Assembly (NCBI RefSeq): GCF_009914755.1
Contig: NC_060934.1
Length of the DNA: 64,000 bases
Source of the DNA: the human T2T-CHM13v2.0 reference genome, Homo sapiens
Reading direction: 5' to 3' (one strand)
A program made the translations under genes and the position numbers. Every line of letters begins with the position of its first letter. Position 1 is the stretch's first letter. The notes beneath the pieces were generated by a model. That model was not told where the DNA came from. It saw only the letters and a list, made by a program, of their open reading frames with translations, and made no database searches. Shown in pieces: positions 9,567 to 63,864 of this stretch.

Positions 9567-9646
9567 TACCAAAAGTTTATACTACTTTGACGTAAGTCTA
9601 CATTGGGAAAATACCTGAGTGACCCTAGAATGTTAACTTTTAAGAA
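9567..9646 (-). repeat. 80-bp inverted repeat arm A (pairs with 13400-13479)
   Basis: Reverse complement matches 13400-13479 at 74/80 positions. Confidence 0.95.
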
Positions 9647-9879
9647 TATATAGATGCTGGGGAGGGGCAGGAGCCAGCGCCCCCACCGGAATTGGAAGCT
9701 GGGGACGCACATGGGAGATGGCTTTGTAGCCACCTCGCCTTCGGCTTTGCCTCCTGCCACGCCCCACAGGCCTGGAGAATGTGGCCCTTGTTGTTTCCAG
9801 GAATACTTTACGCAATTAAAGTCATAATTAAAGTAACATATGCAAAAACCCTATCAGTACTCCTTTTATACTTAAAGTT

Positions 9880-10035
9880 TTGTTTAACTATAACCCTGTT
9901 TACTTGTTTATATGTTGTCTATGGCTGCTGTCATGCTGCAAAGGTCGAGTAGACTATGAAACAGATGATGTGGACCACAGCTCCAAATATGTTTACTATT
10001 TTGCCATTTTCAGGATGAGTTTGCTGGATGACTCC
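9880..10035 (+). mobile_element. MER58-like hAT-Charlie MITE
   Basis: gtctatggctgc...aaatatgtttactattttgccattttcagg...gtttgct. Confidence 0.6.
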
Positions 10036-10689
10036 TAAACTAGTGGAATGTCTGTGTTACTAGTACAGGGAGATCCTTGCCAGCCAATGTCAGAAAAACA
10101 AGTTGATTTTATGGACAATTTGTCATATACATACAAGCACCTTTCCAGTTTTTGTAACTATTAACGATTTATTTTCCTACTTAGTTTGCTCGCTATAACT
10201 TTGAGTGGCTCAACTATTCATCCTGTTTTGATTTCTTCATACCACTTATCCTCCTTCCAGATTATTTAATCAGGTGATTTTATGTTATACCTCAGTAGGG
10301 TCCTGAGCCTCTTGTTTGTTTACATGTCTCTATGACCCTCTTTGTTGTTTCATAAATGGATTGATGATATGTAAAATGTACATATTCATGGAAATAGCAT
10401 TTGTTCCAATTGACAAAACTATTTATAAAATGAGGATTGTAATTATGTGTGCTATTTGAATTGTGTACATGTATATTTCTGTCCTTGGATTGGAGGCAGA
10501 AAAGGGGTTGATTTTGGCTTCAGCCATGGTTGTTTCCTCGGAATCCTAAAGTTAGTTGTTCTAGGCATGGGTCTGTAGGATGAATATCCCAAGGTGACAG
10601 TCATGGTAGATCCTTAGACCTTATTCTCGTGGGATTTTTAATAAGTGTATTAGTATTTTAAGAGCTATATTAGCTATAAGAAGAAATAG

Positions 10690-12750
10690 AATCAATTTTT
10701 ATTTCAAAATGTTTCAATTTGAAATAATTGTATACTTCAGAAAAATTGAAATAATATTAACAGTATTTCTGCATACCCTTCATCTATCCTTACTGTTAAT
10801 GTTTAACATAATCATAGAACAATTATTAAAGGTAAGAAATTCATACTGATTCAGTACTGTTGACTAATCTTCAGAGGGCATCTGAATTCTCCCTCCAGTA
10901 CCCATTTTCTGTCCTCGTTGCATGTAGTTCTCATTTTTCCTCAGGCTCCTCCAGTTTGCATAATTTCCTCATTATTTCTTTTACATTCATGACCTTGACA
11001 CTTTTTAAGAATCATATTTATTTTGTAAATATTTTGTAGACTGCACCTCCATTTGGGTGTGTCTGATGTTTTGTCATGAAGTAACCTTCCATTTAATCAT
11101 GAGGAAACATCAGATAAACTCAAACGGAGGTACAGTCTATGAAATAAATATGATTCATGTGGCAGGAATGCCACAGAAGTAATGTTACATACTTCTCAGT
11201 GCATTTTATCAGATGGTGTGTGATGTTGCCATTACTGGTGATGTTAATCTTGGTAGAATGGTGGCTGCCAAGTATTTTTCCCTTTTTAGCTGAAATGTAT
11301 TTTGTGGGGAGACATTTGTAGATATACAAATATCCTGTTTGTTATCGTAATCTCCACCATTAATCCTAGCACCCATGAGTAGAATTTTACCTACAGCAGT
11401 TATTACGGTGGAGATTGCCTAATGATTTCTTTCCATCATTCCTTCTGTATTTGTTTGGAATGCTCCAGTAGGAAACAGCTGTTCCTTCTACACCACTTAT
11501 TTATTCAATTATTTATATTATTATGGATTCATGGCTGTTTAGTGTATTCTTTGGATTATGATCCAATGCTAATATTATTTATTTTGTTTTCAGGTTGTAT
11601 CAACTGTTGGGGTGATCAGACCCAACACCAGGCCATGGGGTCTATGAAGTCTGGCGGCATCAAAGGAATGAGGAAAGACAAGTTAAGAGAGAAAGTGGGA
11701 CCAGGGGGCCAATGCTAGTATGGAGGCTGCGAAGGCCCCAAGCTCTGGGAGCCCACACTGTTTATTGGTGATCAAAGAAACAGTTGGTGAGGATGTGGGG
11801 GTTGAAAGGAAGTGGTGTATCAAGTGAATGAGCTACAGCTGTGACGGTTCAGCATTTTCTTTGAAACATATGGCTACTTGAGATAAAGGGAGTGCTAGAA
11901 GCAAGGAGCCAGCAAGTCCAGACACATTCCAAAGGCCATGAGAGGTTTTAGACCTTGGACCCCGGACATGTTCCAAGCACTGCCTCAGCTTCTCTCCCAA
12001 CACTCAGCTTTTCTCCCAACACTCAACATTGTCCATTGAGAGCCCCTTCAGGTTGGCACCTGTTTCCTTTTGATGTGCCTTCATCATTTTTCAGTTCTTC
12101 CTTATTTTTGGCATCACAAAGCATTCCAGGCTTATCACGCGTCTTCCCTGATCTCAGCCCTGAAATTAACCCTATTTCTAGGGAGCCCTGGTTCATTAAC
12201 TGGAGAATGGTACTAGAAACCATGATCTGAGCACTAGGTGTGCTCATTGGCATGGGAATGCCATTTACTCTAGGATCTCTTCATGGACAGAGTTAGGAAC
12301 TCTATATTGGTGTACTCACACATGCGTTAACATTTGTCTATACCTATCTGACTGTGTACCTACCTACCTACTCATAAAAACTGTGAGTTCATACTGTTGC
12401 CTTTGATTCCACTCTAACACCACTGAGTTTATTCTAGCTTTTCCTTCTTTGTAACTTCTAACAGTGAGAACATTGGCTTTTATTTTCCAAGATATGTTCA
12501 CTTGTTTGTTTGTTCCTGGTGTGTGTGTGTGTGTGTGTGTGTATAGTAGATTGAGAAATGTGAAACCATATGCTTGTTAAGAAACAAATTTACTAATTAG
12601 AAGATAGTATTTGTGTGACATATTTTTTGTCTTTAGCTTTCAACAATGAAAATAGAGTTTTCCAAAGTTACTTAGGCTTCTTATGTTCTTCCCCACCTCT
12701 TTCTGCATGCTCATATTATTAGATTTCCTTTTATTAGATTCTCATTTCAT
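10690..12750 (-). mobile_element. Old L1MC/MD 3' region, interrupted by an ERVK LTR
   Basis: Degenerate antisense L1M 3'UTR motifs. Confidence 0.55.
11605..12021 (-). mobile_element. Solo ERVK LTR (LTR14B-like, HML-1)
   Basis: TG...CA termini; - strand start TGTTGGGAGAAAAGCTGAG; AATAAA on - strand; 6-bp TSD atcaac/ctcaac. Confidence 0.8.
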
Positions 12751-13008
12751 TAGATTCCCTTTTATCCTTTTTAGATATCTTATGCACAAATAAGCAGATA
12801 ACGTATATAATTTCTAATATCCCCTTCTCATTATATGAAGTGTAGCTCATACCACATGTATATATATGCATTCTTGCTCTGTGTTTTGCATTTTTTCTTT
12901 CCACTTAACAATATAGCCTATATTTTAGAACATATTTAAATTTACTTCCGTCTTAGCATGCTGTGATAGCAGTTTCATTATTTTTCAGCTGTAGAATTTT
13001 GTCTATAA

Positions 13009-13479
<471 letters not shown>

Positions 13480-13529
13480 GTAATTTAAATGTCTTTATTT
13501 ATAAATGCATATTTATGTTTCATTTCCAG

Positions 13530-13716
13530 CTGGTTGGAGTGTTTGATGAGCAAGATCTACATCATGGAGGTGATGACACCAATGCCAGCTCCATGCATAC
13601 CTAGAGCCCAGAGAGATTTGCTAGTGCTAGTGAGCTTGGCACAAACAATGTCTCAGCCTTTCAGTCTGATCAAGCAGCAAGTGAAATTGAGGTCACATCT
13701 TCAGTACTTCATGTAA
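13530..13716 (+). pseudogene. Isolated duplicated PARD3 exon 3 (gene fragment) with nonsense codon
   Basis: tttatgtttcatttccag|CTG GTT GGA... translates [61 protein letters not shown]. Recalled PARD3: [60 protein letters not shown]. TAG at 13602-13604; donor gtaagt at 13717. Confidence 0.9.
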
Positions 13717-13752
13717 GTAAGTGAAAGCTCTTTCTTCTCTGCATACTTCATC

Positions 13753-14018
13753 TTTTTTTTTTTTTTTTTTTGAGATGGAGTCTTGCTCTGTTGCCCAGAC
13801 TGGAGTATAGTTGTGCGTTCTCGGCTCACTGACACCTCTGCCTCCTGGGTTCAAGCAATTCTCCCTCTCATGACCTCCTGAGTTCCTGGGATTACAGGCA
13901 GCCACTGCCACGCCCAGCTATTTTTTGGGTATTTTTAGTAGAGACAGAGTTTTGCCATGTTGGGCAGGCTGGTCTCGAACTTCTGACCTCAGATGATCTG
14001 CCCGCCACGGCACCTGGC
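13753..14018 (-). mobile_element. Alu (AluS) with small deletion
   Basis: Antisense Alu just downstream of the PARD3-derived exon. Confidence 0.92.
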
Positions 14019-14312
14019 CACATCATCTTCATTTGAAGGATACAAAGTTTTGTCATCCAGTCTTGCTTCTGTAAATGCAAGGAATTCATTTCTTGAACAG
14101 ATAATAAAATTCATTACCTGTTTTTATCCAGAATTCAGTTTAGAACTTTGGCAAATGTCTTGCAAAGAAGTAGGCACATTAAAATCACATTTTAATGAAT
14201 TAAGCTTACTTTAGTCAACTTTTCATGGCAGGGCAGGGTCCATCAAGGCAGGGGAATAGAGAAATATTTAGACACTGGTGTAGCCCAAGTCCCAACCAGT
14301 TTTAGTATATGT

Positions 14313-14484
14313 TGAAGCGAGCACCCAAGTCCCAACCAATCTGAATGAACCATTCTACCATACCAAGCCAATATTAATATTATTCATAATAAAATCTGCT
14401 GAAGTGAGCACCCAAGTCCCAAACAATCTGAATGAACCATTCTACCATACCCAGCCAATATTAATATTATTCATAATAAAATCT
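14313..14484 (+). repeat. Tandem duplication, 2 x 87 bp
   Basis: tgaag(c/t)gagcacccaagtcccaa...attcataataaaatct at 14313 and 14400; partial third copy at 14284-14298. Confidence 0.92.
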
Positions 14485-15509
14485 TAATAAATGAAAAATC
14501 AGTAAATAAAAAATGAATATAAAATACCTAAACATAAATTTGTCCTAAAACTCTAGTTGAGGGTTTTAAACATATCAAGAGTAACTGTTTTGAGTCACCT
14601 TAAAGCATTGCAATTTGTACAACCAAAAGGAAATATATCCTAAGGAAAAAATGAATTGCCAAACGAGGACCCTAAAACTGTTTGTTGTTGGCATTGTTCA
14701 TTTTCAATTCATAGATGGGTATTATAGGATGAAGGAGATGAGGAGCAATAATACTTTAATTCTGTCATTCCTGGTGTCATTGAGGACCTAGGATTCTTAG
14801 TATAGAAGAAAGGGGATACAGATAGAAGTTACAAAGTAACAAACACTTTATAGTCCTCAATTTGGATAGGACAAGTCATCATGGATTCATGATATGCTTT
14901 AACTCTCAAAAAAAAAGAGAACCTAGAAGGAAGGAGAACTCCTGTGTGTATTCACAGAAAAAGCCATGAATCAAGGACCACCTTAGTAAGGCAGCATTTC
15001 TCATATCCAGGCTATATTCTGGAAATAACAATTTTTTATAAAAAGAGATCAGAGTTCCTTGGAGAAATGCCTGAATTTAGGTCTGGACAGAAAATGTATG
15101 AGATGATTCTGGATCATCCTGACATATCATAAAATAAGGATGCTATGAAACATTACTAGGGTATATCACAGGGCCTAGGAGAAGACATGATGCTCCTACT
15201 GTCATTGGAACATCAATTAGTATAGTAACAGCAATAAGTGCATGGATTTGTAACTATAATAAATAAGCTTACAAGCAAGAAAAAGGCTTCCAGTGATCCA
15301 ATTTATTATTTGGAAAGCTGATAAAGGAATAATTCATCTATTCTGCATTTCCTGTGTGGGTGGTGTGACTGGATAACTAAGTAACAGATCAAGGGGAAGT
15401 TACTTTTTATGTAAGTATTTCAGCTAATAAATGAAGGTGTAATGGTAGCATTAGAATATTACTATTTTGCAACTCCTGGTGAAATAATAGATCTAGGGAT
15501 TGATCATTG

Positions 15510-15959
15510 TATGAAAGGACAATAAAAATTGGGGACCCCAATTTCCTATGCCAAAAGAAAAAAATTAAGCTGAAAGCTGAGTCATGAAAGAAGCTGCCTT
15601 TCCTTGGCTTTGTAAGCAGTTACAGATAAAAGTTTAAACATTTCCACAGGTAGCTACCCTGTTCATCTTATCTAATCAAGTGCTGATTTATTGAGCATAA
15701 GATCAGTACATAATTGACTATTTCCCTACGTGCTCCTTTTCTCTTGCAACATGAGGATCACCACACACTTCCTGTTTCCTCTCTAGGTCACTTTTCCTTT
15801 TTAAATATTGAAGCCCTCAAAATCATCTTTAGAGAAAAATCACAGACCACAGACTGTGTCTGTGATTCTGTGTTTATTTCTCCTGGGCATGTTCTTAACC
15901 TTGGCAAAATAAACTTCTACACTGATTGAGACCTGGCTCAGATACTCTTTGGTTTTACA
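15510..15959 (+). mobile_element. Solo ERV1 LTR (MER4 group)
   Basis: tatgaaaggacaataaaaattggggacccc...aataaac...ttttaca; 4-bp TSD attg. Confidence 0.75.
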
Positions 15960-15961
15960 AT

Positions 15962-16445
15962 TGCTATGGTCTTAATGTATCCCTCAAAATGTATCTGTTA
16001 GAACTCTAATCCCTAAGACAGCAGTGTTGGGAGCTGCAGCCTAATGGAGGTGTTTAGGTCAAAAAGGCACTTTTTATTTGGAAAACTGATAAAAGAAAGA
16101 ATAAATTATTTATCTATTCTGCATTTCCCATATGTGGGTGTTATCTACTACCCTGCAGTAGATGAGGGGGATGTTACTTTTTATATACATATAAAATAGT
16201 TATGTCTTATATAAGTATAAAAAAGGCTTGATGGATTGGGTTTACTTTTTGTCACTCTTCTGTCATGTGAGCACATCACATCCATCCTCTCTCCCTTTCA
16301 CCTACCTCCATGTGAGAATGTAGTAGGAATACCCTCTCCAGAGGCCTCTTGATTTTGGACTTCCCAGCCTGCGGAACTGTGAGAGAATAAATTTCTGTTC
16401 TTTATGAGTTACCTAGGTTCAGGAACTCTGTTATAGCAACAGAAC
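15962..16445 (+). mobile_element. MaLR LTR (MST/MLT1A-like)
   Basis: tgctatggtc...ggacttcccagcc...aataaatttctgttc...tgttatagcaacagaa. Confidence 0.8.
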
Positions 16446-16866
16446 CCTCCCAACTGGAGTTCTTCAGCACACCCCAGTCCATCCCCTCGCTAACTCCCCC
16501 ACCTGTCCAGTCTTATCTGCCTTTATATCAAAAGCCCACAGCTAACCCAGAGGGCTTCAGCCCTGCCCTGCCTTTCTAGGAAACCCCCCTCTCCACCCAC
16601 CCTGATCAAGACACTGTCTGAAGTTTCCCCCTCATGATTTAAAAAAAAGAAATTTATCTGACAGAGGTTCTGCTGAGGAGGCCAGCTCTCACATCAGAGG
16701 GTGATGGCAGTTTGTGCTGGATGAGGATAAGACAATGCTGTCCTAGGGCTGGCCATCTGATAAAGCTTCCCAGAAAGTGCAGTAATGGACCCCTGGGAGG
16801 CTTTCTGCTCTCCTGTCTGCGGGTTCCTGGTGAGAGGACCTATTGGCCACTAAGGTGTCTGAATAT

Positions 16867-16871
<5 letters not shown>

Positions 16872-16905
<34 letters not shown>
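16872..16905. repeat. (TG)n microsatellite
   Basis: Direct; other (TG)n tracts at about 12519-12542 and 17863-17899, and a TG-rich tract at 6377-6478. Confidence 0.95.
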
Positions 16906-16907
<2 letters not shown>

Positions 16908-17338
16908 AGAGTGATGTGTGTGTTCTTGGCTTGATTTCTTTCAGCATGAAGCCCACTGTTTTGCTGAATGTATCTGTTTCCTGAAACTCAGTGCATTCAG
17001 CTGGCTCAAGGGTCCTGGGGCCTTACTGTGTCATATTTGCACAAGCCTTGTGTCTGTGCAGACTGTACACTGGAGTTCAGTTGTAAAACCCTTTTTCTCC
17101 CTTATCCTGACACAGTAATAGAAAAGCCATTTCATTCAATGGAATAGAAACCCAGATCTAATGGAGAGATGGTCTAATCTGCCATACATTGGAGCAGTAT
17201 CCAGTGATTTGGACTTTGTGGCATTGATGGAAATTTCCAGGTTCTCTAGGTGGTGGGCAGAGACCTCACTTTTTAAGAAACTCTCCACCCCTGCCAATGA
17301 GGACACTGCTTGAGGACATTCCTGTCAATGTTAAGTAG

Positions 17339-17695
<357 letters not shown>

Positions 17696-17860
17696 TAAGG
17701 GAGCCAGCTCCTGAATACTGCCAGGTGCTTGGGCTGAGACAGGTCTAGACAGCACTGTCTGAAAATGGGCTCAAGGAAGTAGCTGTGAAAGGGCCCTGGG
17801 ATGTTTTCTGCTCCCCTCTCTGCAAATGTCCTGGAGGGACATCCTGTTAGTCACTTTGCG

Positions 17861-17901
<41 letters not shown>

Positions 17902-18889
17902 CATCAGTTGGTTTTATGTTTTTGCTTTTCTTCATGAAATCTGCAGAGCTGCCAAAAGTACCTTGATGTTTTCTGAAAGCAGAGCCAATGACCACACTCC
18001 AGGGACTGAGTTCTCAAATGTATGGTATTTGCTAAGGACGGGTGTTTACCTGCAGATAGTGTGATGGGGTTCAGAGCCAAGGAACACTAGTTTCTGTGCC
18101 CTGTTTCTATGTTAAAAAGACATTTCGTTCAACTGGATAACAGGGCAATTCTGGTGGAGAAAAGGTCTATTCTGCCATAGGATGGGGCAGCAGCCTGCAG
18201 TTCAGAACACTGGTGTGTGTCTGGAGATTTCCAGGAACTCCAGCTGCTGGTAGAGGCCCAGAAGGTAGGGGGCATTTGTCTTCAGATCAAAGGTGAGGGT
18301 TCTGCTCACCCCATTATCTTGGCCATGTGTGGACCCTTAAGTTTGCAGGATTGGATGTCCTGACTGACTGTGCCATAGGAGGGTATAAGAGACTGAGGGC
18401 AACACAACTATAGACTGTGGGGATGATGTTCATAGGGAGCGTCCCTGCTGCCTGTGGCAAGAGTAAAGAGTGAAATGCTTGGGGCTGGGAAGAGGCAACA
18501 AAAGTCTACATAATCTATTGTCCTCAGCTCATCTCCCATCCTAGTCCAGTCATGGCCTAACATCTTTAGCTACTGATCGCAGAGGAGACTGTGCATTTGT
18601 GTTCATGTGGCCTTGGATGTTGGCAAATTCAGATTGGTGCCCCAGGCATCTGTGCCTGTAACTGCAGTTTCAATGGGCTCAGAACCAGCCTAAAGGGCCT
18701 CCAAGCTTCCTCCAGTTTCCTGGTGCATGCATGTGCAATATACTCCCGTCGCCTGGGTCTCTTCTGCCTCTTCTTGCCAGTTGGGTCAGAGCTAGCTTAT
18801 TAACCAGTGTTTTCTGAGATTTAATAGAACTGGCTCAGACCAGTTGGAGACTTGAAAAGGGCTACGTGATAGTAATAGATTTTTAAAGA

Positions 18890-19620
18890 TACATTATTAT
18901 TTTAGAGTAGATTTGAGTGTACAGCAAAATGGAGTGCAGAGTCCAGAGTTCCCATATGCCCTCGATTCCTGTACACTCTTGGGTCACTCAACCAACAACC
19001 TCCTACACCAGAGTAGAATATTTATTATAGTCAGTGATCTTACACTGACACATCATTATCACCCAGAGTGATACTGTTGATGGCACACATTCTAAGGGTT
19101 TGGAGAAATGTATAACGAGAATGAAATGTATAATGAATGTATCATTATAGCTGTTATGATATCCTGCAGTATATTTTCATTACTGTAATAATCTTGTGCT
19201 CTATTTATTTATCCTTTCTTTTCCTAACCACTGGAAACCACCAATCTTTTCACTCTCCAAAGTTTTGCATTTTTCTGAATGTTATATACTTGGAATCATA
19301 GATAACTTTCCAGATTGGCTTCTTTCAGTTACTAATATGCATTTAGTATGTAATATGCAGTTAGTAATAGCTCATTTCTTTTCAGATGTGATTAACATTT
19401 CATTTTCTAAATATACCACATTTGTATTTATCATTAAGCTACTTAAGGAAATCTTGGTTCCTCCTGACTTTTGGCAGCTATTTTAAAAGCTGTTATAAAC
19501 ATCTGTGTGCAGATTTTTGTGTGGACATAAGCTTTCTGGTCATTTGGATAAAGACCTAGGGAATGCAACTACTGGATCACATAGTAAGATTATGTGTAGT
19601 TTTGTAAGAAACTGCCCATA
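18890..19620 (-). mobile_element. L1MB/MC 3' fragment
   Basis: Antisense L1 3' sequence (aaacatctgtgtgcagatttttgtgtggacataag...tttgtaagaaactgcc). Confidence 0.7.
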
Positions 19621-19669
19621 TTAGGAGAGTCTTTACATTGGTAGAGGAGACTGTGCTAACATACTGCAG

Positions 19670-19805
19670 AACCATGCTCAGCTAATTATTTGTTTGTATT
19701 TGTTTTAGAGATGGGGTTTCCCTAAGTTGCTTAGGCTTGTTTCAAAATCCTGGGCTGAAGTAGTCTGCCTGCATTGGTCTCCCCAAGTGCTGGAATTACA
19801 GGCCA
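19670..19805 (-). mobile_element. Alu monomer (FLAM-like)
   Basis: Diverged left-arm sequence. Confidence 0.75.
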
Positions 19806-21699
19806 TCTAAACCTTTTATCTTAGATTTGCCTTGTGACAAAAGGAGGGGTACTTTTTCTGATATGATGAGGCAGAGAAAGATGAGGTGGGTGCATCCTGT
19901 GCATATTATTTTCTTAGGCTTTTGCCTGATGGGATATATTTTCTCCTTCAATGATATGGCAAGATATTCAGGTGAAAGAAGTTGAATAAAAGTTAGAAGA
20001 ACAGAGAAAAGATTGGTTCTACATGTTGGGTTTTTGAATAAATGATGTCATTGGAGAAACAAAACTTTTATTGATTTTTGGAAATATTCAGGGCCAATTT
20101 GTTGTGTAAGTAATTTGAACTTATGATGATACCTCTGACCACTTTTTGATATTTTTGGGGTTCAGCTGAGTGGTGTCAATGAGCCAACACAAAGTGGGGC
20201 TCATCCAGGGATGAGATTTTGCCAGAGAAAGGATGAGCATCAAGTCAGGGAGCTTAAGATAATTATGAGAAAGTGACTATCTAAAATTGCTTAGGTAAGA
20301 GAGAGATTGGATTTTTGTGTATTTGGTATTTGGGAGAAGAGGGGTGTGGGTATGTATATGAGATGTGTTGTTTATTCTCTTAAGAGAGAAAATGAGAGGA
20401 TTAATGGACTGTAGTTCTGGACAAGGTGAAAAACTCTTAAAGTGGAAGTATTGGTGCAAGTGCTGTGACAGGCTGGAATGGTGCAGTCAGTCCCTTCATC
20501 CATAAATCAGTAGAATGTTAGCAGTTCATACTCAAACCTTGTAAAAAATAGGTGGAGAAAAGGAAGTCCCTCACAGTAACTGGCACCATAATCAAGACAG
20601 AATGTTTCCAGAATAAATGGAGTTATCTGCTTTCAGCTTCAGGTGGTAGCTATTGTCTGCCCTGATGATATGTGATAATAATTTGTGATCCCGATGTCTT
20701 AAAATGGGATCACTCATCTCCAGTAGAATTAAGTCCACAGTGAAGTTGTCCCCTCATCCCCAAAGAGATAAACATATATGAATGGACTGAGATGATAATA
20801 ACTACTGCTGCCTGGGATCATGAGAGACCTGAAATGAACTGATAGGATGTGAAAGGTGGCTGAGAAAATGAGAATGGACCCATCTGCGGAGGATCATAAA
20901 ACCAGCAAAGCTTCAGAAGCTTTGTCCATGAAAACTCTAAGGACTTCTCCATACCTGGTGGCTGCTGCTGTGATCTCTGCCCAAAAGGAGCCTCTGATCA
21001 GTATCCAAAGGGCTTCTGGACCCACTGGAGTCTTCTGGAGGTACATTGGTATCCTGAGACATCACTGTGGTTTTTTACTCTCTTTATTACTGCCTGTGTG
21101 TAGAATGATAATTGCCTAATTGATAGTGTGAATACCTCTTGATACATGGTAAATCTGAGCATATGTAATTGGGTGTCATGTCATTCTGAAACCTCACAGC
21201 TTCAGTCAGTGTCAGCACAGCTAGGCAGCTTGCACCTAATGCAAATATCAGTGGACATAGTCTATAGGTACCTAATGACTCAGGTACTTTAACAGTCACT
21301 AATGAGTGTATCTCCAAGAAATAGTCCAACAACACATGGCTGGCCTGACTCAAGGTAACTATATGTCCAATCCAGGGTCATACTGAGTGGACATCTGGCA
21401 ACCACAGGTCATTCCCCCTGCCTGCCATTGAACTGCTAGTTCAAAAGTGACTGGTGTAAGCAGACAGGAGTGGGCTTGTTCAACTCACTATTTGCTTCTT
21501 CTGAAGGGATCATACTCAGGATCTAGGTCATCGTGCCTTATTGGAGTCCTACACATTTCACTTGCAAATTATATTTGAAAATGAAATTACCATGTTGCTA
21601 GTCATTCACAAAACATTTTTTAAAATTACATTCTAGAACCAATATTAACATCCTGTGACCCATAGAAAACAATAGAGAAATGTATTAGGCAAAAAGTTC

Positions 21700-26640: not shown

Positions 26641-27941
26641 CTTTCTGATAATCCTGCTTGAGAAATTGGGGGAATTCATACTACCTGGGATCAAATTGTG
26701 GCCCCAGCCTGAGCAGTCGTGTGACCTTGGGGAGATAACTTACTTTCTCCATTTCAGTGTCTTCTGTAAAACCTGTAAAATGAGATTGTTTCTGAGGGTT
26801 AAATGAGCATAGCACAGTTAGAATACTGTCAGGCACATACTGATTGCCAGATGTTGAGTATTCATCTTTATTGAATTAGGACTGTGGTACCCCACTTTAT
26901 GGCTCTCTATTTTGTATGACAAAATCATGCTTAGTGCTTTGTTAGTAAAAGAGAGAATAATCTGAAAGTTTTTCCTGTGGAAGGAAGAAACAGAGGGGAG
27001 AAAAGGGAGTTGGTAAGTTTCAGCATTTCAGAACTTGGAGGGACAAGTCAGGTTTCTATTTTTTGGAGAAAGAGGTGGAGGCAGGATGGGTCCTAAGGTG
27101 TCATTCAAGACACACAGCCATAACTCTTTATTGAGAGTAGAGCTAGAGCCCCAGGGACTGCTATGGTCAAGTTGCAGACAAAAACTACCACTCATTGGAA
27201 GACAGGAGAGGAATATTTAGTTACAAAAGCAGTCAACAATTCAGGTGTATCTACATTCAGTCAGCAAATAAAAGTTGCTCAACTTGGTTGCTAATGGGAC
27301 CCACTCTACTAACTGAGGATTTGTATAGAACTCATAGAGGAAGATGGCTTCAAGTAAGGAACCACCTTGTGCTTTTCTTGGGACTAAAAAGCTCAGGAAG
27401 CCGGTGATGAATGAAAATCTTAGTCCCACTGGCACTGTGCAAGGGGCCAGGAGAGCAGCAGCATCATAAGCCTCAGGGTGAGGCAGCCCAGGCAGGGGCA
27501 TTCTGAGCTGTAGGGGAGGTGGGGCAGCCAGGGTGGGGCATTGTGAGCTGTCAGGGAGGGCATTGTGAAGTGTGGGGTGGGGCATTGTGAGCCACAAGCC
27601 TGGGCTTCCACCTGGGCTAGTGTGCTTCAGTCTGTAGGTGACTGCAGAAGGAGGAGGAGCTCCATCTGTACTCTCTTCAGGCAGTTGTGTCTCTCAGTGC
27701 TTGTTGGGTTCACACCTATTAAATAAGCTGGCTGGTCTTCACCCTCCAAGAGAAGTCAACTCATGGGAGGTGGCAGGGTACAGGCATTGGCCCAAGCTGT
27801 GGCTGGGGCCAGGCTGTGGTGTCGGCAGGCAAGCAGCAGACAAGACCATCTCTGCAAGTGCAGCACAGCCTCAGCCTAGGGCAACGGGAGTGTGAGGCCA
27901 AAGCTGTGAGCAGAGGCATAGGTAGTGGCAGACAGGAGTAG

Positions 27942-59028: not shown

Positions 59029-59727
59029 AAGACTTTCATTCAGAATTACTACATTGTATATTTACAAGTGAATTGAGGATTCTTGTGACTAAGAAGAGAC
59101 TCACTAGTGATGGTCAGTTGGTTTTGAAATGGCTGCTAAATTACTGCTTTGCTAATAGTAGAAACTGAGTTGTCACGGTGATATTGCTAGTAGCCATTTT
59201 AGCAAAGGATGTAACAGAAAACGAATTTGAAAAAAATAGAAGTACTTTGAAAGTTGCAGAAGCTAAAGTGCTCTTAATCACTACTGTAATCAGTCTGTAC
59301 ACTGGTTTCTTGAAGGGAGCAAAATTTGTAATTATGAACACTTAGCTCTGCTATAAGGCAGCTAAATTGTTTTCAAAACCTTCAGCTAATCCAGTGGGGC
59401 TCTAGTTCTAGTTACAAGGTCAGAGAATATCCAGAGAAATGTGCAGGTTTCCACAGATGTGAGCTCCAGAAGCAGTGGTGGCAGAAGCCAGCTCCAGTTC
59501 TACACAATGCTGTTTGTGAATGCAGAAGCACCCAGATCTATGCTCTGAGCAGAAACTGTAAAACGTTGCAACAAAGTGTGTAATGTACATTTATCTTGTC
59601 CCTCTGCTGTTGATTGTAATGATCTCTTTTGGACTGTGAATTGAACCATTTAAAAATTAGTGTTTATCAGATTTTTCTTAAAACTTTTCAACATCTGTTT
59701 GTCTTGTTAGAATACATTTTCCTTCAG

Positions 59728-60225
59728 AAACGTCACTAATTTTCAGGGAAATGAAAATAAAAACCACAGTGTGATACCACCTTACTCCTGCAAGAATGGC
59801 CATAATTTAAAAATTGAAAAAATCATACATGTTGGTATGGACTTGGTGAAAAGGGAACACTGACACTGCTGATAGGAATGTAAACTAGTACAACCACTAT
59901 GGAAAACAGTACTGCCATTCAATCCAGCAATCTCACACTGGGTATCTACCCAAAGCAAAAGTCATATGAAAAAGACACATGCACATGCGTGTTGGTAGCA
60001 GCACAATTTGCAATTGCAAAAATGTGGAATGTCCATCAATGAATGGGTAAATAAAGTGTGGAATATATACACCATGGAATACTGCTGAGCCATAAAACAG
60101 AATAAAATGATGGCCTTTGCAGCAACTTGAATGGAGCTGGATGCCATTATTCTAAGTGAAGTAACTCAGGAATGGAAAACCAAATATCACGTGTTCTCAC
60201 TTACGGGTGGGAGCTAAGCTAGGAG
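59728..60225 (+). mobile_element. L1PB-like 3' fragment
   Basis: Typical late-ORF2/3'UTR sequence (gataccaccttactcctgcaagaatggcc...ctaagtgaagtaactcaggaatgg). Confidence 0.85.
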
Positions 60226-60856
60226 GATTTTATATGTATTTATACACATACACACACACATACACACACATACATATAAGTTAAACTGAGCAGCTCCTAT
60301 TCAGAAAATGTGCTGTGCCTATAAAGGGTATGCTATTCAGCCATTTAAAAAACAACAAAAAACTAAGAAGATACATATCCTGTAAGGCATAATGGCTTTC
60401 TTCAATAACTAAGCCTCTATTAATAAACATGTTAATTATATAAAATACTGTATTTTACACATTTAAAATATGTTTACGGAAAAACATGAGATTATGAGGT
60501 ACATATATTTCTATAGTAAATTAAGTCCTGATTAGCTGATTATTAAAGCATTATATGATTTACATTCCTATAGTCTTATGGTTATATGAATAGGAAAGTA
60601 ATATTAGAAGTAGTTTCAGTGGGGTTTTCAGTTAAACAAATGAGAAAACCACATATCTGCTTATATCCTAACTGCTTTCCATACCAGAGAATATCAAGCA
60701 TTTGTTGACTTAGCTAATGGATAAAACTTTAAAACCAAGAAACCAAATATGTTGTTGAGGTATTAATTGTTTTTATAAAGTTAAGTCTTTACAGGGATTA
60801 CTATGAAAGTGGTAAGATTACTCTAGTTCTATATTTATTTAAACATTTGACAAAGT

Positions 60857-61110
60857 GCTGGACACAGTGGCTCATGTCTGTAATACCAGCAATTTGGGAG
60901 GCCAAGGTGGGAGTATCACTTGATCACAGGAGTTTAACACCAGCCTGGGCAACAGGTGAGACCCTGTCTCTACAAAAAGAATTTTAAAAAAATAGCCCAG
61001 CATGAACCTGTAGTCCCAGTTACTTGAAAGGCTAGGATCATGCCACTGCACTTCAGTCTGAGTGACAGAGAAAGACCCTATCTCAAAACAAACAAACAAA
61101 CAAACAAAAA
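60857..61110 (+). mobile_element. AluJ-like with deletion
   Basis: Diverged sense Alu with (AAAC)n tail. Confidence 0.85.
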
Positions 61111-61924
61111 TCTTTGGCCAGGACAGCTGGATAATCACGTGGCAGAGGGCTGCTCCCAGCTTGTTCCCCTCTCAGTACATTCAACTCATCCCCACATTCT
61201 GTTCTGGCCAGGGGTGACAGATGCTGAGCACCTTGGGGTTTCATTTCCAACTCAGGAGAAACACTGTGTAAGGCCAGCATCCTAGCAAAAGGCATGTCAT
61301 AAAAGGGGTTTAATCTAGCCAAGGTGTTTCTCTTTGATCTTTCTACCATCTGAAGTGTAAAGAGTATTCCTGCACCGTAATAGTGACAGATAATAAATGG
61401 CATCCATCATTTCTGTCATCTGATCACTATTGTGATGCCTTGGGAGTGAGCATGGAGTCTGAGTTGTGCAATAGAACCCTCAAGAATGAGCCCTGAGTCA
61501 GCTGCACGAGGGCAGAGAAGGGTGTCGCCTTTCTCCTCAACCCAAACTTGGGGTGCTAGATGCAGAATGGACTGCAAGCAGCTGTGCCCTCTTTGGACAT
61601 TAGTGTAGGAATCCACCCGCATAGCCTGTATTTGTTTCAAAAAAGAATTTGGAGCTATCCTAATAGCTCAGTGTGATATTTTTAAATAAACAGAAAAAAA
61701 TTTTATTAACTGACTTAACAAAAAACACTGCCTATTAAATTCATTTAATATTGTTTAAGGAGTATCTACAAAATTCTGACTTCAATGTTTTCTTACAAAA
61801 GAAGTGGAAGTAAGGACAGAGACCCTTTCAAATGAAGAATCACTGAGAAACAAAATATTTATAAGTAGTATAACATTTACTTATGCACATTTTTAAAGAT
61901 TATGCCATAATCAGTTTGCATCAG

Positions 61925-62548
61925 GCTCTCCAGTTTCACAACACTGAGAGGGTTTCCCTGTAGGAGAAATTTTCATATAAATGTTGAAGAAATTGTTAAA
62001 ACTGAAAACTTTTCTGTATTTGGTAATCTACTGGGGTTCCAATCCAGTATGCTTTCTTATATTTAGAAGGTCTTTCTACAGTGTGTTATCATGGATCTTG
62101 GAGCAAATATCATGTAAATGAAGGCATTTCCACATTCTATACATTCATAGGTTTTATTTCAGAAATGAGTTCTTATCTTCATGTGGAACTGGAACAACTG
62201 AAGACCTTACCACGGATGTTTGTATTTATAAGGGTTTTCTCCATTGAATCCTTTCATATTTTCAAAGAAATGAAAAAGCTGAAGGCTTTACTGTGTTTCT
62301 TAAGATTATGTCAATTTTCTCCATATTAAATTCGAATATGTCTTTGAAAGCACGTGGGAAAATCAAGTTTATTAACACAGTTTTTACATTCATGTTGTTT
62401 TTGTTTTTCTAAGTTTTCAAAGAGAACTGGGAAAGTTGCATGCTTTCTTGTATTTCTTAGATCGATAGGGTTCTGTACAGTGTGAGTTCTTTCATGTGTT
62501 CTAATAAAGTAGAGCACATGATGCCTTTGCCACATTTTTTACATGAGA
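61925..62548 (-). pseudogene. Degenerate C2H2 (Kruppel-type) zinc-finger array relic
   Basis: - strand fragments CKKCGKG, THERTHTVQNP, HECKNCVNKLDFPTCFQRHIRI, GENPYKYK..GKVFS, KTYECIECGNAFI, TGKPSQC; many stops and frameshifts. Confidence 0.82.
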
Positions 62549-62607
62549 ATAATGTTTTTGAACTAACATTGTCCTGTGTTGGTTTTGTTGTGTTTCTCCT
62601 TCCCCAG

Positions 62608-62770
62608 GAATGAGTTGGAAAGGGAATTCTTGAAGCTAATTAATTACAATATCAGCGTTACTGGCAGTGTTTATAGCAGATTCTACTTCAATCTTCGAAC
62701 CATGGCACATGACAACAGCCTGTATTCGCTAGTTTATCTTCTTGACAGAGAAAGAGCATGGAAGCTGGAG
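62608..62770 (+). pseudogene. CCNYL exon 9 (163 nt), open frame
   Basis: Branch-like ctaac at about 62563; tttctccttccccag|G AAT GAG TTG GAA AGG...AAG CTG GAG|gtaagg. Confidence 0.93.
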
Positions 62771-63864
62771 GTAAGGCTACGAAGTTACTAAGTGGGTTTT
62801 CAGTCAAACACCAATGCCAACATCTGTGACTAGGTCATATTAAGCAGTGATTAGAAAAATGGAAAGCTTCAAAATTAACTAACATACTGAAGATCTTGTT
62901 ACTTTTTGGCGTTCTATTTCCTGTATATTTTATGGTTTTTACAAGGATCCACATTATTTGAAAATTATAGCTATTATCTTCCCTTTTATGACCTTAATTC
63001 AGAATATTTTAATCAAATTTAATTCATTTGTAATCTTTCCTTTTTGAACCTTTACCCTTTCAAATAATCATATGTAAATGATTTCTTGTTATTGTATTCT
63101 GAGCAATGTCTACATACATAATGCACTTACCACTCTTGACTATTTTTTATTATTCAGTTTGCAAATTTATGTCATTTTCTACTGTATATACCACAGTGCA
63201 GTCAGTCCCATGGGTTTGTTAGAAAAAGCATTAGTGCCTAAGCCAAGAGACCTGCACTTAGACTGTATAAGGTGTGTGTGTCTCAAGTACTGGATGCAGA
63301 AAGTACATGGGATTTTACTGGAAATAACTTTTATGGGACAAAGTAATATTTATGGCTTGTGACTTTTGGTAAGTACACAGCAAAGTTACAGCTGACAAGG
63401 ACGAGCATTTAAAATAGGCATGTTCTGTGGTACCTTGGAAGTATTTTAAAATAATACATTTTCTATCATAATTAATGTGCAAGTGAAGTAGTGCCTTTTG
63501 ATGCTTTAGTCATTAGACTTCTTTGATGTTCCAATACAATCCAGCACATGCCTGCATCATTAAAATTTGCTTTGAGTATATAATAACTACTATAGATTGG
63601 GTAGAGTTTGAATAGATTAATAAACTAACTTTTTGCAAAAGTGTACATTCATTATGCTTAAGGAACAAGTACACAGGTAACAGATGATACTGCTCTTAGA
63701 AGCCTGTCACAATACTGTGACATCTTTGGGTGCCCAATTTTTAAGTAACTTAATAAAACAAGTTCCCCTTTGCTCCAGCAATCTAATTCTAGCCCTGAAA
63801 GGAGATTATCTTAGCGAGTTGACAGAACTTGGCGGTGTAAACCTCAGCCAAGTAGCTATAACTG

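What the first reader, a model, noticed from the sequence alone, without database searches (positions are those of the whole stretch)
13530..13722. Orphan PARD3 exon 3 upstream of, and co-oriented with, the cyclin Y-like gene
Seen: a 187-nt exon with an intact pyrimidine tract and AG, and two overlapping GTAAGT donors (13713 new, 13717 ancestral). It matches recalled PARD3 exon 3 at about 45/60 aa, with a 6-nt duplication (gctagtgctagt) and Q>stop. The ORF track misses it. Known: PARD3 and CCNY are near neighbours on human 10p11, on opposite strands as I recall. Inference: retained intron flanks mean DNA-level duplication, not retroposition. The locus would then be a rearranged PARD3+CCNY chimera in which a polarity-gene coding exon may now serve as a 5'UTR exon.
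Basis: partly seen in the sequence, partly recalled or inferred. Interest (0 to 1): 0.85.

Follow-up and report, generated by a model that had tools for sequence, protein, structure and literature searches.

The report
Old dead copy of PARD3 exon 3
This is a real but broken, neutrally decaying copy of one coding exon of the polarity gene PARD3, carried with its intron flanks into the mosaic of duplicated DNA beside the chromosome 10 centromere; it is an ordinary pseudogene fragment.

Summary
Window 13530-13716 (+) is a 187-nt copy of the third coding exon of PARD3 (parent chr10:34545604-34545424, minus strand). It shares 157/181 nt and 45/60 aa with the parent. It has an intact AG acceptor, the ancestral GTAAGT donor at 13717 and a new one at 13713, a 6-nt insertion and a CAG>TAG stop.

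It lies in a 6.6-kb block (9864-16438) colinear with PARD3 introns 2 and 3. That makes it a DNA-level duplication, not a retrocopy. The copy is old: 80.0% identity, K2P 0.236, and no Alu shared with the parent. It evolved neutrally (dN on the copy lineage is about half the intronic K).

A sister copy at 10q11.21 (94% identical) keeps the frame open. AGAP-type loci and chr19 lack the piece.

The "PARD3+CCNY neighbours" idea fails. The cyclin Y-like gene here shows intron-level homology to a chr2 locus (CCNYL1 by recall) and to chr19, not to CCNY at chr10:35.59 Mb, where one 10-kb region was compared. A 5-kb module of other origin separates the PARD3 piece from it.

No listed RefSeq transcript uses the exon, and no RNA data could be examined. 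Verdict: ordinary passenger pseudo-exon, low interest.

The parts
9864..16438 (+). PARD3-derived block: the end of intron 2, exon 3 and the start of intron 3. It is colinear with chr10:34549190-34539818 (minus strand).
   Evidence: One search found 10 colinear blastn blocks. One search found 4247 aligned sites, 80.0% identity and K2P 0.236 (non-CpG 0.228).
13510..13529 (+). Inherited 3' splice site: a pyrimidine tract and AG (13528-13529).
   Evidence: AG is kept in the window, the q-arm copy and the parent. By my count, 4 of the 20 upstream bases differ from the parent.
13530..13716 (+). Pseudo-exon, 187 nt, a copy of the third coding exon of PARD3.
   Evidence: It shares 157/181 nt and 45/60 aa with the parent. 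BLASTP against an orangutan PARD3 gives E 1e-24.
13602..13604 (+). In-frame TAG. The parent and the q-arm copy have CAG here.
13620..13631 (+). Tandem gctagt x2. This is a 6-nt in-frame insertion relative to PARD3, and the q-arm copy shares it.
13713..13718 (+). New GTAAGT created by a C>T change. It is specific to the window.
   Evidence: The parent and the q-arm copy read GCAAGT here.
13717..13722 (+). Ancestral GTAAGT donor of PARD3 exon 3.
   Evidence: The parent exon ends ...CGAGCAA|gtaagt.
13080..13388 (+). Alu inserted into the copy after the duplication.
   Evidence: the parent is continuous across this point (34545739 to 34545749); the Alu is shared with the q-arm copy; 5.3% non-CpG divergence from a local Alu consensus.
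13750..14006 (+). Second Alu inserted into the copy just after the exon.
   Evidence: It has no counterpart in the parent in the chain's orientation, and it is shared with the q-arm copy.
9567..9646 (-). An 80-nt inverted copy of 13400-13479 (PARD3 intron 2 just before the exon), found on the p arm only.
   Evidence: 92.5% identical to 13400-13479. One search found no second hit in the q-arm copy.
16449..21553 (+). Neighbouring module, not part of the PARD3 block. It is shared with the multi-copy chr10 (AGAP-type) loci but not with chr19 or PARD3. Its edge abuts the PARD3 block.

Best explanation
The stretch is an unprocessed, partial pseudogene. A genomic segment of about 9 kb holding the third coding exon of PARD3 and parts of both flanking introns was copied at DNA level from 10p11.21 (34.54 Mb) into the region that is now pericentromeric 10p11.21. 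There it became one module of a mosaic:
- ZNF37A 3' flank;
- PARD3 piece;
- a 5-kb module shared with the AGAP-type loci;
- a cyclin Y-like gene copied from chr2.

The copy has drifted neutrally since. It gained a 6-nt insertion and two Alus. The whole block was then duplicated across the centromere to 10q11.21. After that, the window copy acquired a stop codon and a second GT donor.

Shown here: the homology, its extent, the order of events, and the neutral rate. Inferred: the absolute dates and the lack of function. The PARD3 copy step has per-lineage divergence 0.118. With recalled calibrations, that places it older than the New World monkey split, around the base of primates. The p/q step has per-lineage divergence 0.031, about the age of the Old World monkey/ape ancestor.
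For: Identity:
- 83% identity, E 2.9e-101, to chr10:34545387-34545738(-).
- Pfam PF12053 (Par3 N-terminal domain) matched in 4 of 8 candidates genome-wide. Two lie at chr10:34843416-538(-) and 34724817-924(-), upstream of the parent exon on the same strand. The other two lie on chr2.
- the parent exon translation gave 2710 of 2761 candidates at E<=1e-3. Of the 120 rows listed, 118 are 100% and 2 are 98% identical. By my count 115 of the 120 carry a name, and every name is Par-3/PARD3, from elephant to apes.
- the window exon, with X at the stop, scores E 1e-24 against PARD3 (45/61 identities).

DNA-level copy:
- 10 colinear blocks span window 9864-16438.
- 4247 aligned sites, 80.0% identity, K2P 0.236.

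Age and order:
- None of the 5 Alus in the parent stretch and neither of the 2 in the copy is shared between parent and copy.
- Both copy Alus are shared with the q-arm copy.
- Non-CpG divergence from a local consensus is 5.3% for the full-length copy Alu (13080-13388) and 5.2-9.3% for the 4 full-length parent Alus. The second copy Alu and the fifth, partial parent Alu were too short to score. All five values lie below the per-lineage 11.8% of the duplication.
- Window versus q-arm copy: 94.1% identity, K 0.062.

Neutral decay:
- dN between parent and copy is 0.130 (window) and 0.113 (q arm). The parent protein is invariant in mammals, so this falls on the copy lineage. It equals half the intronic K (0.118-0.122).
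- Window versus q-arm exon: 6 nonsynonymous changes against 1 synonymous.
- The exon is no better conserved between the two copies than its flanks: 8 differences in 187 nt against a 5.9% background, P(X<=8)=0.22.

Same epoch as the cyclin part: K(window-chr2) is 0.231 over 2461 sites.

No listed use: none of the RefSeq transcripts named in the hub table has an exon at 13530-13716.
Against: - Both splice sites are intact in both copies after about 0.12 substitutions per site.
- The 26 nt after the ancestral donor are identical in the parent, the window and the q-arm copy. This has about 4% probability if only the copy lineage drifted, but the stretch was picked after looking.
- The exon is co-oriented with ZNF37A upstream and CCNYL4 downstream, so read-through splicing is physically possible.
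- The q-arm copy keeps an open frame across the exon.
- No RNA data, no GENCODE annotation and no other primate genome could be examined. The lack of function and the dates therefore remain inferences.
Confidence: 0.87

Rival explanations
1. One reading: the pseudo-exon is alive as a noncoding exon. It would be spliced as a 5'UTR or upstream exon into CCNYL4 transcripts (CCNYL2 on the q arm), or into ZNF37A read-through transcripts.
For: The AG acceptor and the GTAAGT donor are intact in both copies. The orientation matches ZNF37A and CCNYL4 (hub table). There is an invariant 26-nt stretch after the donor.
Against: The one CCNYL4 RefSeq transcript starts at 27632, 14 kb downstream. The listed ZNF37A exons end at 2251. 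The only gene model spanning the exon is on the other strand (hub table). There is no excess conservation of the exon between the p and q copies (P=0.22). In the 20 nt before the AG, 4 bases differ from the parent (my count). No RNA evidence was available to me.
Confidence: 0.1
2. The locus is a rearranged chimera of the two 10p11 neighbours, PARD3 and CCNY, produced by one local rearrangement.
For: PARD3 exons (34.5-34.8 Mb, minus strand) and a cyclin Y exon (35.59 Mb, plus strand) are neighbours on the same arm as the window.
Against: The window's cyclin exon is 54% identical in protein to the chr10:35.59 Mb exon and 63% to chr19. Colinear intron homology exists with chr2:208.22 Mb and chr19:30.51 Mb. 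In the 10 kb around the CCNY exon only Alu-type hits appear. Two larger searches gave no hit near 35 Mb, but only 40 of several thousand candidates were scored in each. A 5-kb module of other origin lies between the PARD3 piece and the chr19-shared block.
Confidence: 0.02
3. It is a processed (retroposed) PARD3 fragment, or a chance resemblance.
For: None found.
Against: Introns on both sides are colinear with the parent over 6.6 kb. The splice sites are retained. The DNA match has E 2.9e-101.
Confidence: 0.01

Closest known systems
Pericentromeric partial gene duplications, such as the ABCD1 (ALD) exon 7-10 fragments at 2p11, 10p11, 16p11 and 22q11
   Same: A genomic segment of a few kb, with exons and introns, is moved into pericentromeric DNA. 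It is non-functional and sits in a mosaic with pieces from other chromosomes. It was later re-duplicated between pericentromeric sites.
   Different: This copy is much older than classical segmental duplications: 80% identity to its source against the usual 90% or more. It holds a single exon, and its source is on the same chromosome arm.
CTGLF/AGAP4-type chimeric genes of chromosome 10 (Baertsch et al. 2008, PMC2584115, passages read; Genome Res 2024, PMC11534156, passages read)
   Same: The DNA from 16449 onward in this window is shared with those multi-copy loci at 83-93% identity. That these loci are the AGAP genes is recalled from their coordinates, not shown by a tool. The 2008 paper states that CTGLF1 began as a cyclin gene that acquired a CENTG2 retrocopy.
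   Different: The PARD3 piece is not part of that duplicon. At the one AGAP-type locus examined in full, homology stops exactly at window 16449. The 361-nt exon query hit none of these loci. There is no evidence that the PARD3 exon contributes to any transcript.
Duplicated KRAB zinc-finger clusters flanking the chromosome 10 centromere, ZNF33A/37A versus ZNF33B/37BP
   Same: The window and chr10:43.29-43.36 Mb are inverted paralogs at 89-96% identity. The PARD3 piece is carried in both.
   Different: That literature, as I recall it, concerns the zinc-finger genes. I found no mention of a PARD3 fragment. Searches gave 0 papers for CCNYL4 and no paper with 'PARD3 pseudogene' or 'PARD3P1'; the 2 word-start hits for 'PARD3P', judged from the search listing only, look unrelated.

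Membership tests
Unprocessed (duplicated) pseudogene fragment | Significant homology to an exon of a functional parent gene | tested here: met
   E 2.9e-101; 157/181 nt, 45/60 aa; the parent exon is the PARD3 protein sequence.
Unprocessed (duplicated) pseudogene fragment | Intron sequence and splice sites of the parent retained in colinear order | tested here: met
   10 colinear blocks from 9864 to 16438, with AG and GTAAGT kept.
Unprocessed (duplicated) pseudogene fragment | Disabling lesions or neutral evolution | tested here: met
   TAG at 13602. dN on the copy lineage is 0.113-0.130, about half the intronic K of 0.236-0.243. Only one exon of the gene is present.
Processed pseudogene / retrocopy | Intronless copy of the mRNA with a poly(A) remnant | tested here: not met
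   Flanking introns are present on both sides. The T-run after the exon belongs to an antisense Alu.
Segmental duplication in the database sense (at least 1 kb and at least 90% identity) | At least 90% identity between the copies | tested here: not met
   PARD3 versus the copy is 80.0%, so this pair falls outside the usual definition. The p-arm/q-arm pair, at 94.1%, does meet it.
Exon-shuffled chimeric transcript (PARD3 exon used as a 5'UTR exon of the cyclin Y-like gene) | Transcripts that splice the exon to the downstream gene | not testable with these tools
   No RNA data were available. The RefSeq models in the hub table show no exon at 13530-13716 on the + strand.

The most novel reading that the evidence does not exclude
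The pseudo-exon kept working splice sites in both pericentromeric copies. It is spliced, probably in testis, into read-through or upstream-start transcripts that link ZNF37A/ZNF37BP to CCNYL4/CCNYL2. If so, a fragment of a polarity gene would have become a noncoding exon of a primate-specific transcript. A milder variant is that the PARD3 piece (K 0.236) and the chr2 cyclin Y-like piece (K 0.231) arrived in one composite duplication event near the base of primates.
Probability: 0.1. Interest if true: 0.3.

Novelty: new member of a known kind. Interest (0 to 1): 0.15.

Why it matters
It matters little for biology: a dead exon fragment in pericentromeric duplicated DNA is a well-known kind of object.

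It has three practical uses:
- The fragment and its q-arm twin can mis-attract short reads or probes meant for PARD3 exon 3, though 87% identity limits that.
- At 80% identity to its source, it is invisible to segmental-duplication catalogues. It therefore serves as a marker for dating the first assembly of the chromosome 10 pericentromeric mosaic, which appears to be much older than the AGAP expansions.
- It corrects the assumption that the cyclin Y-like pseudogenes here derive from the nearby CCNY. Their intron homology points to chr2.

Tried and rejected
- translated the exon from 13531, the wrong frame. It was redone from 13530.
- The PDB sequence search with the parent exon found nothing at E<=1. 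Solved Par-3 structures evidently do not cover this segment.
- Literature: 0 papers hold 'CCNYL4'. Twenty hold 'CCNYL2', of which 15 were listed. Most listed titles concern RET-fusion partners or gene lists. One review says nothing is known of CCNYL2 (PMC6971155, passages). No paper holds 'PARD3 pseudogene' or 'PARD3P1', and the 2 word-start hits for 'PARD3P', judged from the listing only, look unrelated. A search for the ZNF37A/ZNF37B duplication literature gave 4 papers, none on the structure of the locus. A look-up of a recalled 2003 Genome Research paper by DOI failed because it is not held.
- I considered coding constraint on the open q-arm frame and rejected it. dN equals the neutral rate, and the p/q comparison shows 6 nonsynonymous changes against 1 synonymous.
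- I considered CCNY as the source of the cyclin part and rejected it.
- I considered that the flanking Alus came over with the exon and rejected it. They are absent from the parent.

Full report
**What is there**

At window 13510-13529 a pyrimidine-rich tract ends in AG (13528-13529). From 13530 the + strand reads [61 protein letters not shown]. Two overlapping GTAAGT follow, at 13713 and 13717. The in-frame TAG is at 13602-13604, and a tandem gctagtgctagt is at 13620-13631. The stop splits the frame into stop-to-stop ORFs of 51 and 39 aa, which explains why an ORF list with a 60-aa floor does not show it.

**Is it more than chance, and what is the source?**

The window is chr10:38192001-38256000 of the genome held as G000. 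A 361-nt query (13400-13760) against that genome gave four matches:
- itself;
- chr10:43347582-43347942(-) at 96%;
- chr10:34545387-34545738(-) at 83%, E 2.9e-101;
- an 80-nt inverted piece inside the window (9567-9646).

Nothing matched on chr2, on chr19 or at the multi-copy chr10 loci.

Several results show that the 34.545 Mb locus is PARD3. The Pfam model of the Par-3 N-terminal domain (PF12053) hits four places in the genome (4 matches among 8 candidates). Two are on chr10, at 34843416-538(-) and 34724817-924(-), covering model positions 1-41 and 40-75. They lie upstream of the parent exon on the same strand. The other two are on chr2 (205.03 and 205.17 Mb, +), which I take to be PARD3B (name recalled).

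The parent exon (chr10:34545604-34545424, 181 nt) translates to 60 residues. Against the large protein collection this gave 2710 of 2761 candidates at E<=1e-3. Of the 120 best rows listed, 118 are 100% and 2 are 98% identical. By my count 115 of the 120 carry a name, and every name is 'partitioning defective 3 homolog', PARD3 or Par-3, in species from elephant and mouse to lemurs and apes. In a 1355-aa bat PARD3 the exon is residues 93-152, directly after the N-terminal domain. 'Exon 3' is therefore the third coding exon. I did not check the exon number against a transcript record.

**Exon-level comparison**

| Feature | Result |
|---|---|
| BLASTP against an orangutan PARD3, X at the stop | E 1e-24 |
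| 6-nt insertion | present in both the window and the q-arm copy |
| TAG stop | window only; parent and q-arm copy have CAG |
| Parent exon end | ...CGAGCAA\|gtaagt, so 13717 is the ancestral donor |
| GT at 13713 | window-specific C>T; parent and q-arm copy read GCAAGT |
| q-arm exon (chr10:43347812-43347626) | 187 nt, open frame, 47/60 aa identical to the parent |

**Extent and mode of the copy**

blastn of the window against 30 kb of PARD3 gives ten colinear minus-strand blocks. They run from window 9864 to 16438 and correspond to chr10:34549190-34539818. This is 6.6 kb here against 9.4 kb in the parent. The difference comes mostly from Alus and other insertions or deletions.

Realigned with MAFFT, the blocks hold 4247 aligned sites at 80.0% identity, K2P 0.236 (0.228 without CpG sites). 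The q-arm copy gives 0.243 against the parent. The two copies are 94.1% identical to each other (K 0.062).

Introns on both sides are thus present. This is a DNA-level duplication, not a retrocopy.

**Order and age of events**

None of the five Alus in the parent stretch has a counterpart in the copy. Neither of the two Alus in the copy (13080-13388 and 13750-14006) has a counterpart in the parent. At 13080-13388 the parent is continuous across the insertion point. The other Alu matches are in the orientation opposite to the chain. Both copy Alus are shared with the q-arm copy.

Measured against a consensus of 57 Alus from the held sequences, non-CpG divergence is as follows:
- the full-length copy Alu (13080-13388): 5.3%;
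- the four full-length parent Alus: 5.2-9.3%.

The second copy Alu and the fifth, partial parent Alu were too short to be scored. All five values lie below the 11.8% per-lineage divergence of the duplication and above the 3.1% of the p/q split.

The order of events is therefore:
1. PARD3 piece copied.
2. 6-nt insertion and Alu insertions.
3. Block duplicated across the centromere.
4. Stop codon and new donor arise in the window copy.

Absolute dates rest on calibrations that I recall and did not compute here (human-macaque about 0.06, human-marmoset about 0.11-0.12). On that basis the p/q step is about as old as the catarrhine ancestor. The PARD3 copy step is roughly twice as deep as the New World monkey split, near the base of primates. 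[quoted passage not shown] That fits the younger steps.

**Selection**

The parent protein segment is invariant across placental mammals. Non-synonymous differences must therefore lie on the copy lineage. dN is 0.130 for the window and 0.113 for the q arm. Half the intronic K is 0.118-0.122. The copy has changed at replacement sites at the neutral rate since it arose.

Between the two copies there are 6 non-synonymous changes against 1 synonymous. The exon is not better conserved between the copies than its surroundings: 8 differences in 187 nt against a background of 5.9%, P(X<=8)=0.22. There is no sign of coding constraint and no sign of constraint as an exon.

One point runs the other way. 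The 26 nt after the ancestral donor are identical in all three sequences. This has about 4% probability if only the copy drifted. I picked that stretch after seeing it, so I give it little weight.

**Context: the mosaic**

| Window span | Content | Evidence |
|---|---|---|
| up to about 9568 | region after ZNF37A, shared with the q arm at 88-91% | |
| 9864-16438 | PARD3 block | |
| from 16449 | colinear at 83-93% with many chr10 loci (46.6-50.9 Mb, 74.57 Mb and others) | |
| from 21553 | also colinear with chr19:30.46-30.51 Mb at about 75-83% | |

I take the many chr10 loci to be the AGAP-type duplicons (name recalled). At the one locus examined in full (74.57-74.59 Mb), homology stops exactly at window 16449. 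Nothing there matches the PARD3 block.

The cyclin exon at 62609-62770 shows these protein identities:
- 83% to the q-arm copy;
- 63% to chr19:30513088;
- 54% to chr10:35594463(+), which is CCNY by recall;
- 52% to chr2:208225166(+), which is CCNYL1 by recall.

Intron homology decides between these. Window 59031-63864 is colinear with chr2:208222893-208227690 and with chr19. The 10 kb around the CCNY exon gives only Alu-type hits. Over the shared blocks the distances are K(window-chr2)=0.231 (2461 sites), K(window-chr19)=0.199 and K(chr19-chr2)=0.226.

The cyclin Y-like gene here is therefore an old genomic copy of the chr2 gene, not of the neighbouring CCNY. Its divergence from its source (0.231) is the same as that of the PARD3 piece from PARD3 (0.236). 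The two pieces reached the mosaic in the same epoch. Whether they arrived in one event is open.

Baertsch et al. 2008 (PMC2584115, passages read) describe CTGLF1 as a cyclin gene that gained a CENTG2 retrocopy, with a cyclin-only mouse gene as the ancestral form. That agrees with a cyclin Y-like origin of this duplicon family. The paper says nothing about PARD3 (0 occurrences).

These points are right:
- the identity of the exon;
- DNA-level duplication;
- co-orientation with CCNYL4;
- neighbourhood and opposite strands of PARD3 and CCNY;
- presence of the exon at the CCNYL2 side.

These points are not right:
- The AGAP-type loci do not carry the exon.
- The locus is not a chimera of the two neighbours.

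The proposed role as a 5'UTR exon is untested. In the hub table the single CCNYL4 transcript starts at 27632 and the listed ZNF37A exons end at 2251. The only model spanning the exon (LOC105376500) is on the minus strand, with the pseudo-exon inside its intron. I had no RNA data and no annotation of the q-arm locus. Supplements were not consulted.

**Verdict**

This is a real, well-described, but ordinary object: an old, neutrally decaying, single-exon unprocessed pseudogene fragment of PARD3. It is a passenger in the pericentromeric duplication mosaic of chromosome 10. I found nothing in print on it. Searches gave 0 papers for 'CCNYL4' and none with 'PARD3 pseudogene' or 'PARD3P1'. I could not check GENCODE. 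Interest is low.

Noticed in passing
window 9567-9646 (-) versus 13400-13479 (+): An 80-nt inverted duplicate (92.5% identical) of the PARD3 intron-2 sequence just upstream of the pseudo-exon sits about 220 nt before the start of the PARD3 block. It is present only in the p-arm copy. Its end maps to parent position 34545738, next to the point where the Alu at 13080-13388 was inserted. This suggests a local rearrangement at that site.
   Followed up: partly
window 16306-16376 (-): Exon 2 of the predicted lncRNA LOC105376500 lies inside DNA derived from PARD3 intron 3 (block 16214-16438), on the opposite strand. It has AG before it and GT after it on the minus strand. The only annotated exon made from the PARD3 piece is therefore antisense intron sequence.
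   Followed up: partly
window 28155-64000; L018 (chr2:208220001-208230000); L013-L015 and L017 (chr19:30.44-30.47 and 30.508-30.518 Mb): The cyclin Y-like pseudogene shows colinear intron homology to a chr2 locus (K 0.231) and to a third old copy on chr19 (K 0.199). In the one CCNY region compared in detail (10 kb around the cyclin exon at chr10:35.59 Mb), only Alu-type hits appear. The chr19 copy starts at the equivalent of window 21553 and lacks the PARD3 piece.
   Followed up: yes
window 16449-21553: A 5-kb module between the PARD3 block and the chr19-shared block is found only at the multi-copy chr10 loci (86-92% identity). Its origin was not traced. Its left edge (16449) is both the end of the PARD3 block and the end of homology with the 74.57 Mb locus.
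   Followed up: partly
window 14307-14397 and 14394-14484: A 91-nt tandem duplication (94.5% identical) lies within the PARD3-derived block, just before the intron-3 homology resumes.
   Followed up: no
genome: chr10:34.5-35.6 Mb and chr2:205.0-208.2 Mb: Par-3 N-terminal exons and a cyclin Y-type exon lie near each other on both chr10 (34.72-34.84 and 35.59 Mb) and chr2 (205.03-205.17 and 208.23 Mb). This looks like an old paralogous gene pair arrangement. The mosaic in the window joins the chr10 member of one pair to the chr2 member of the other.
   Followed up: no
literature (search listing only): Several lung-cancer papers list CCNYL2 as a 5' fusion partner of RET. If so, the q-arm paralog is transcribed and can donate 5' exons. 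I did not read them to see which exons are involved.
   Followed up: no
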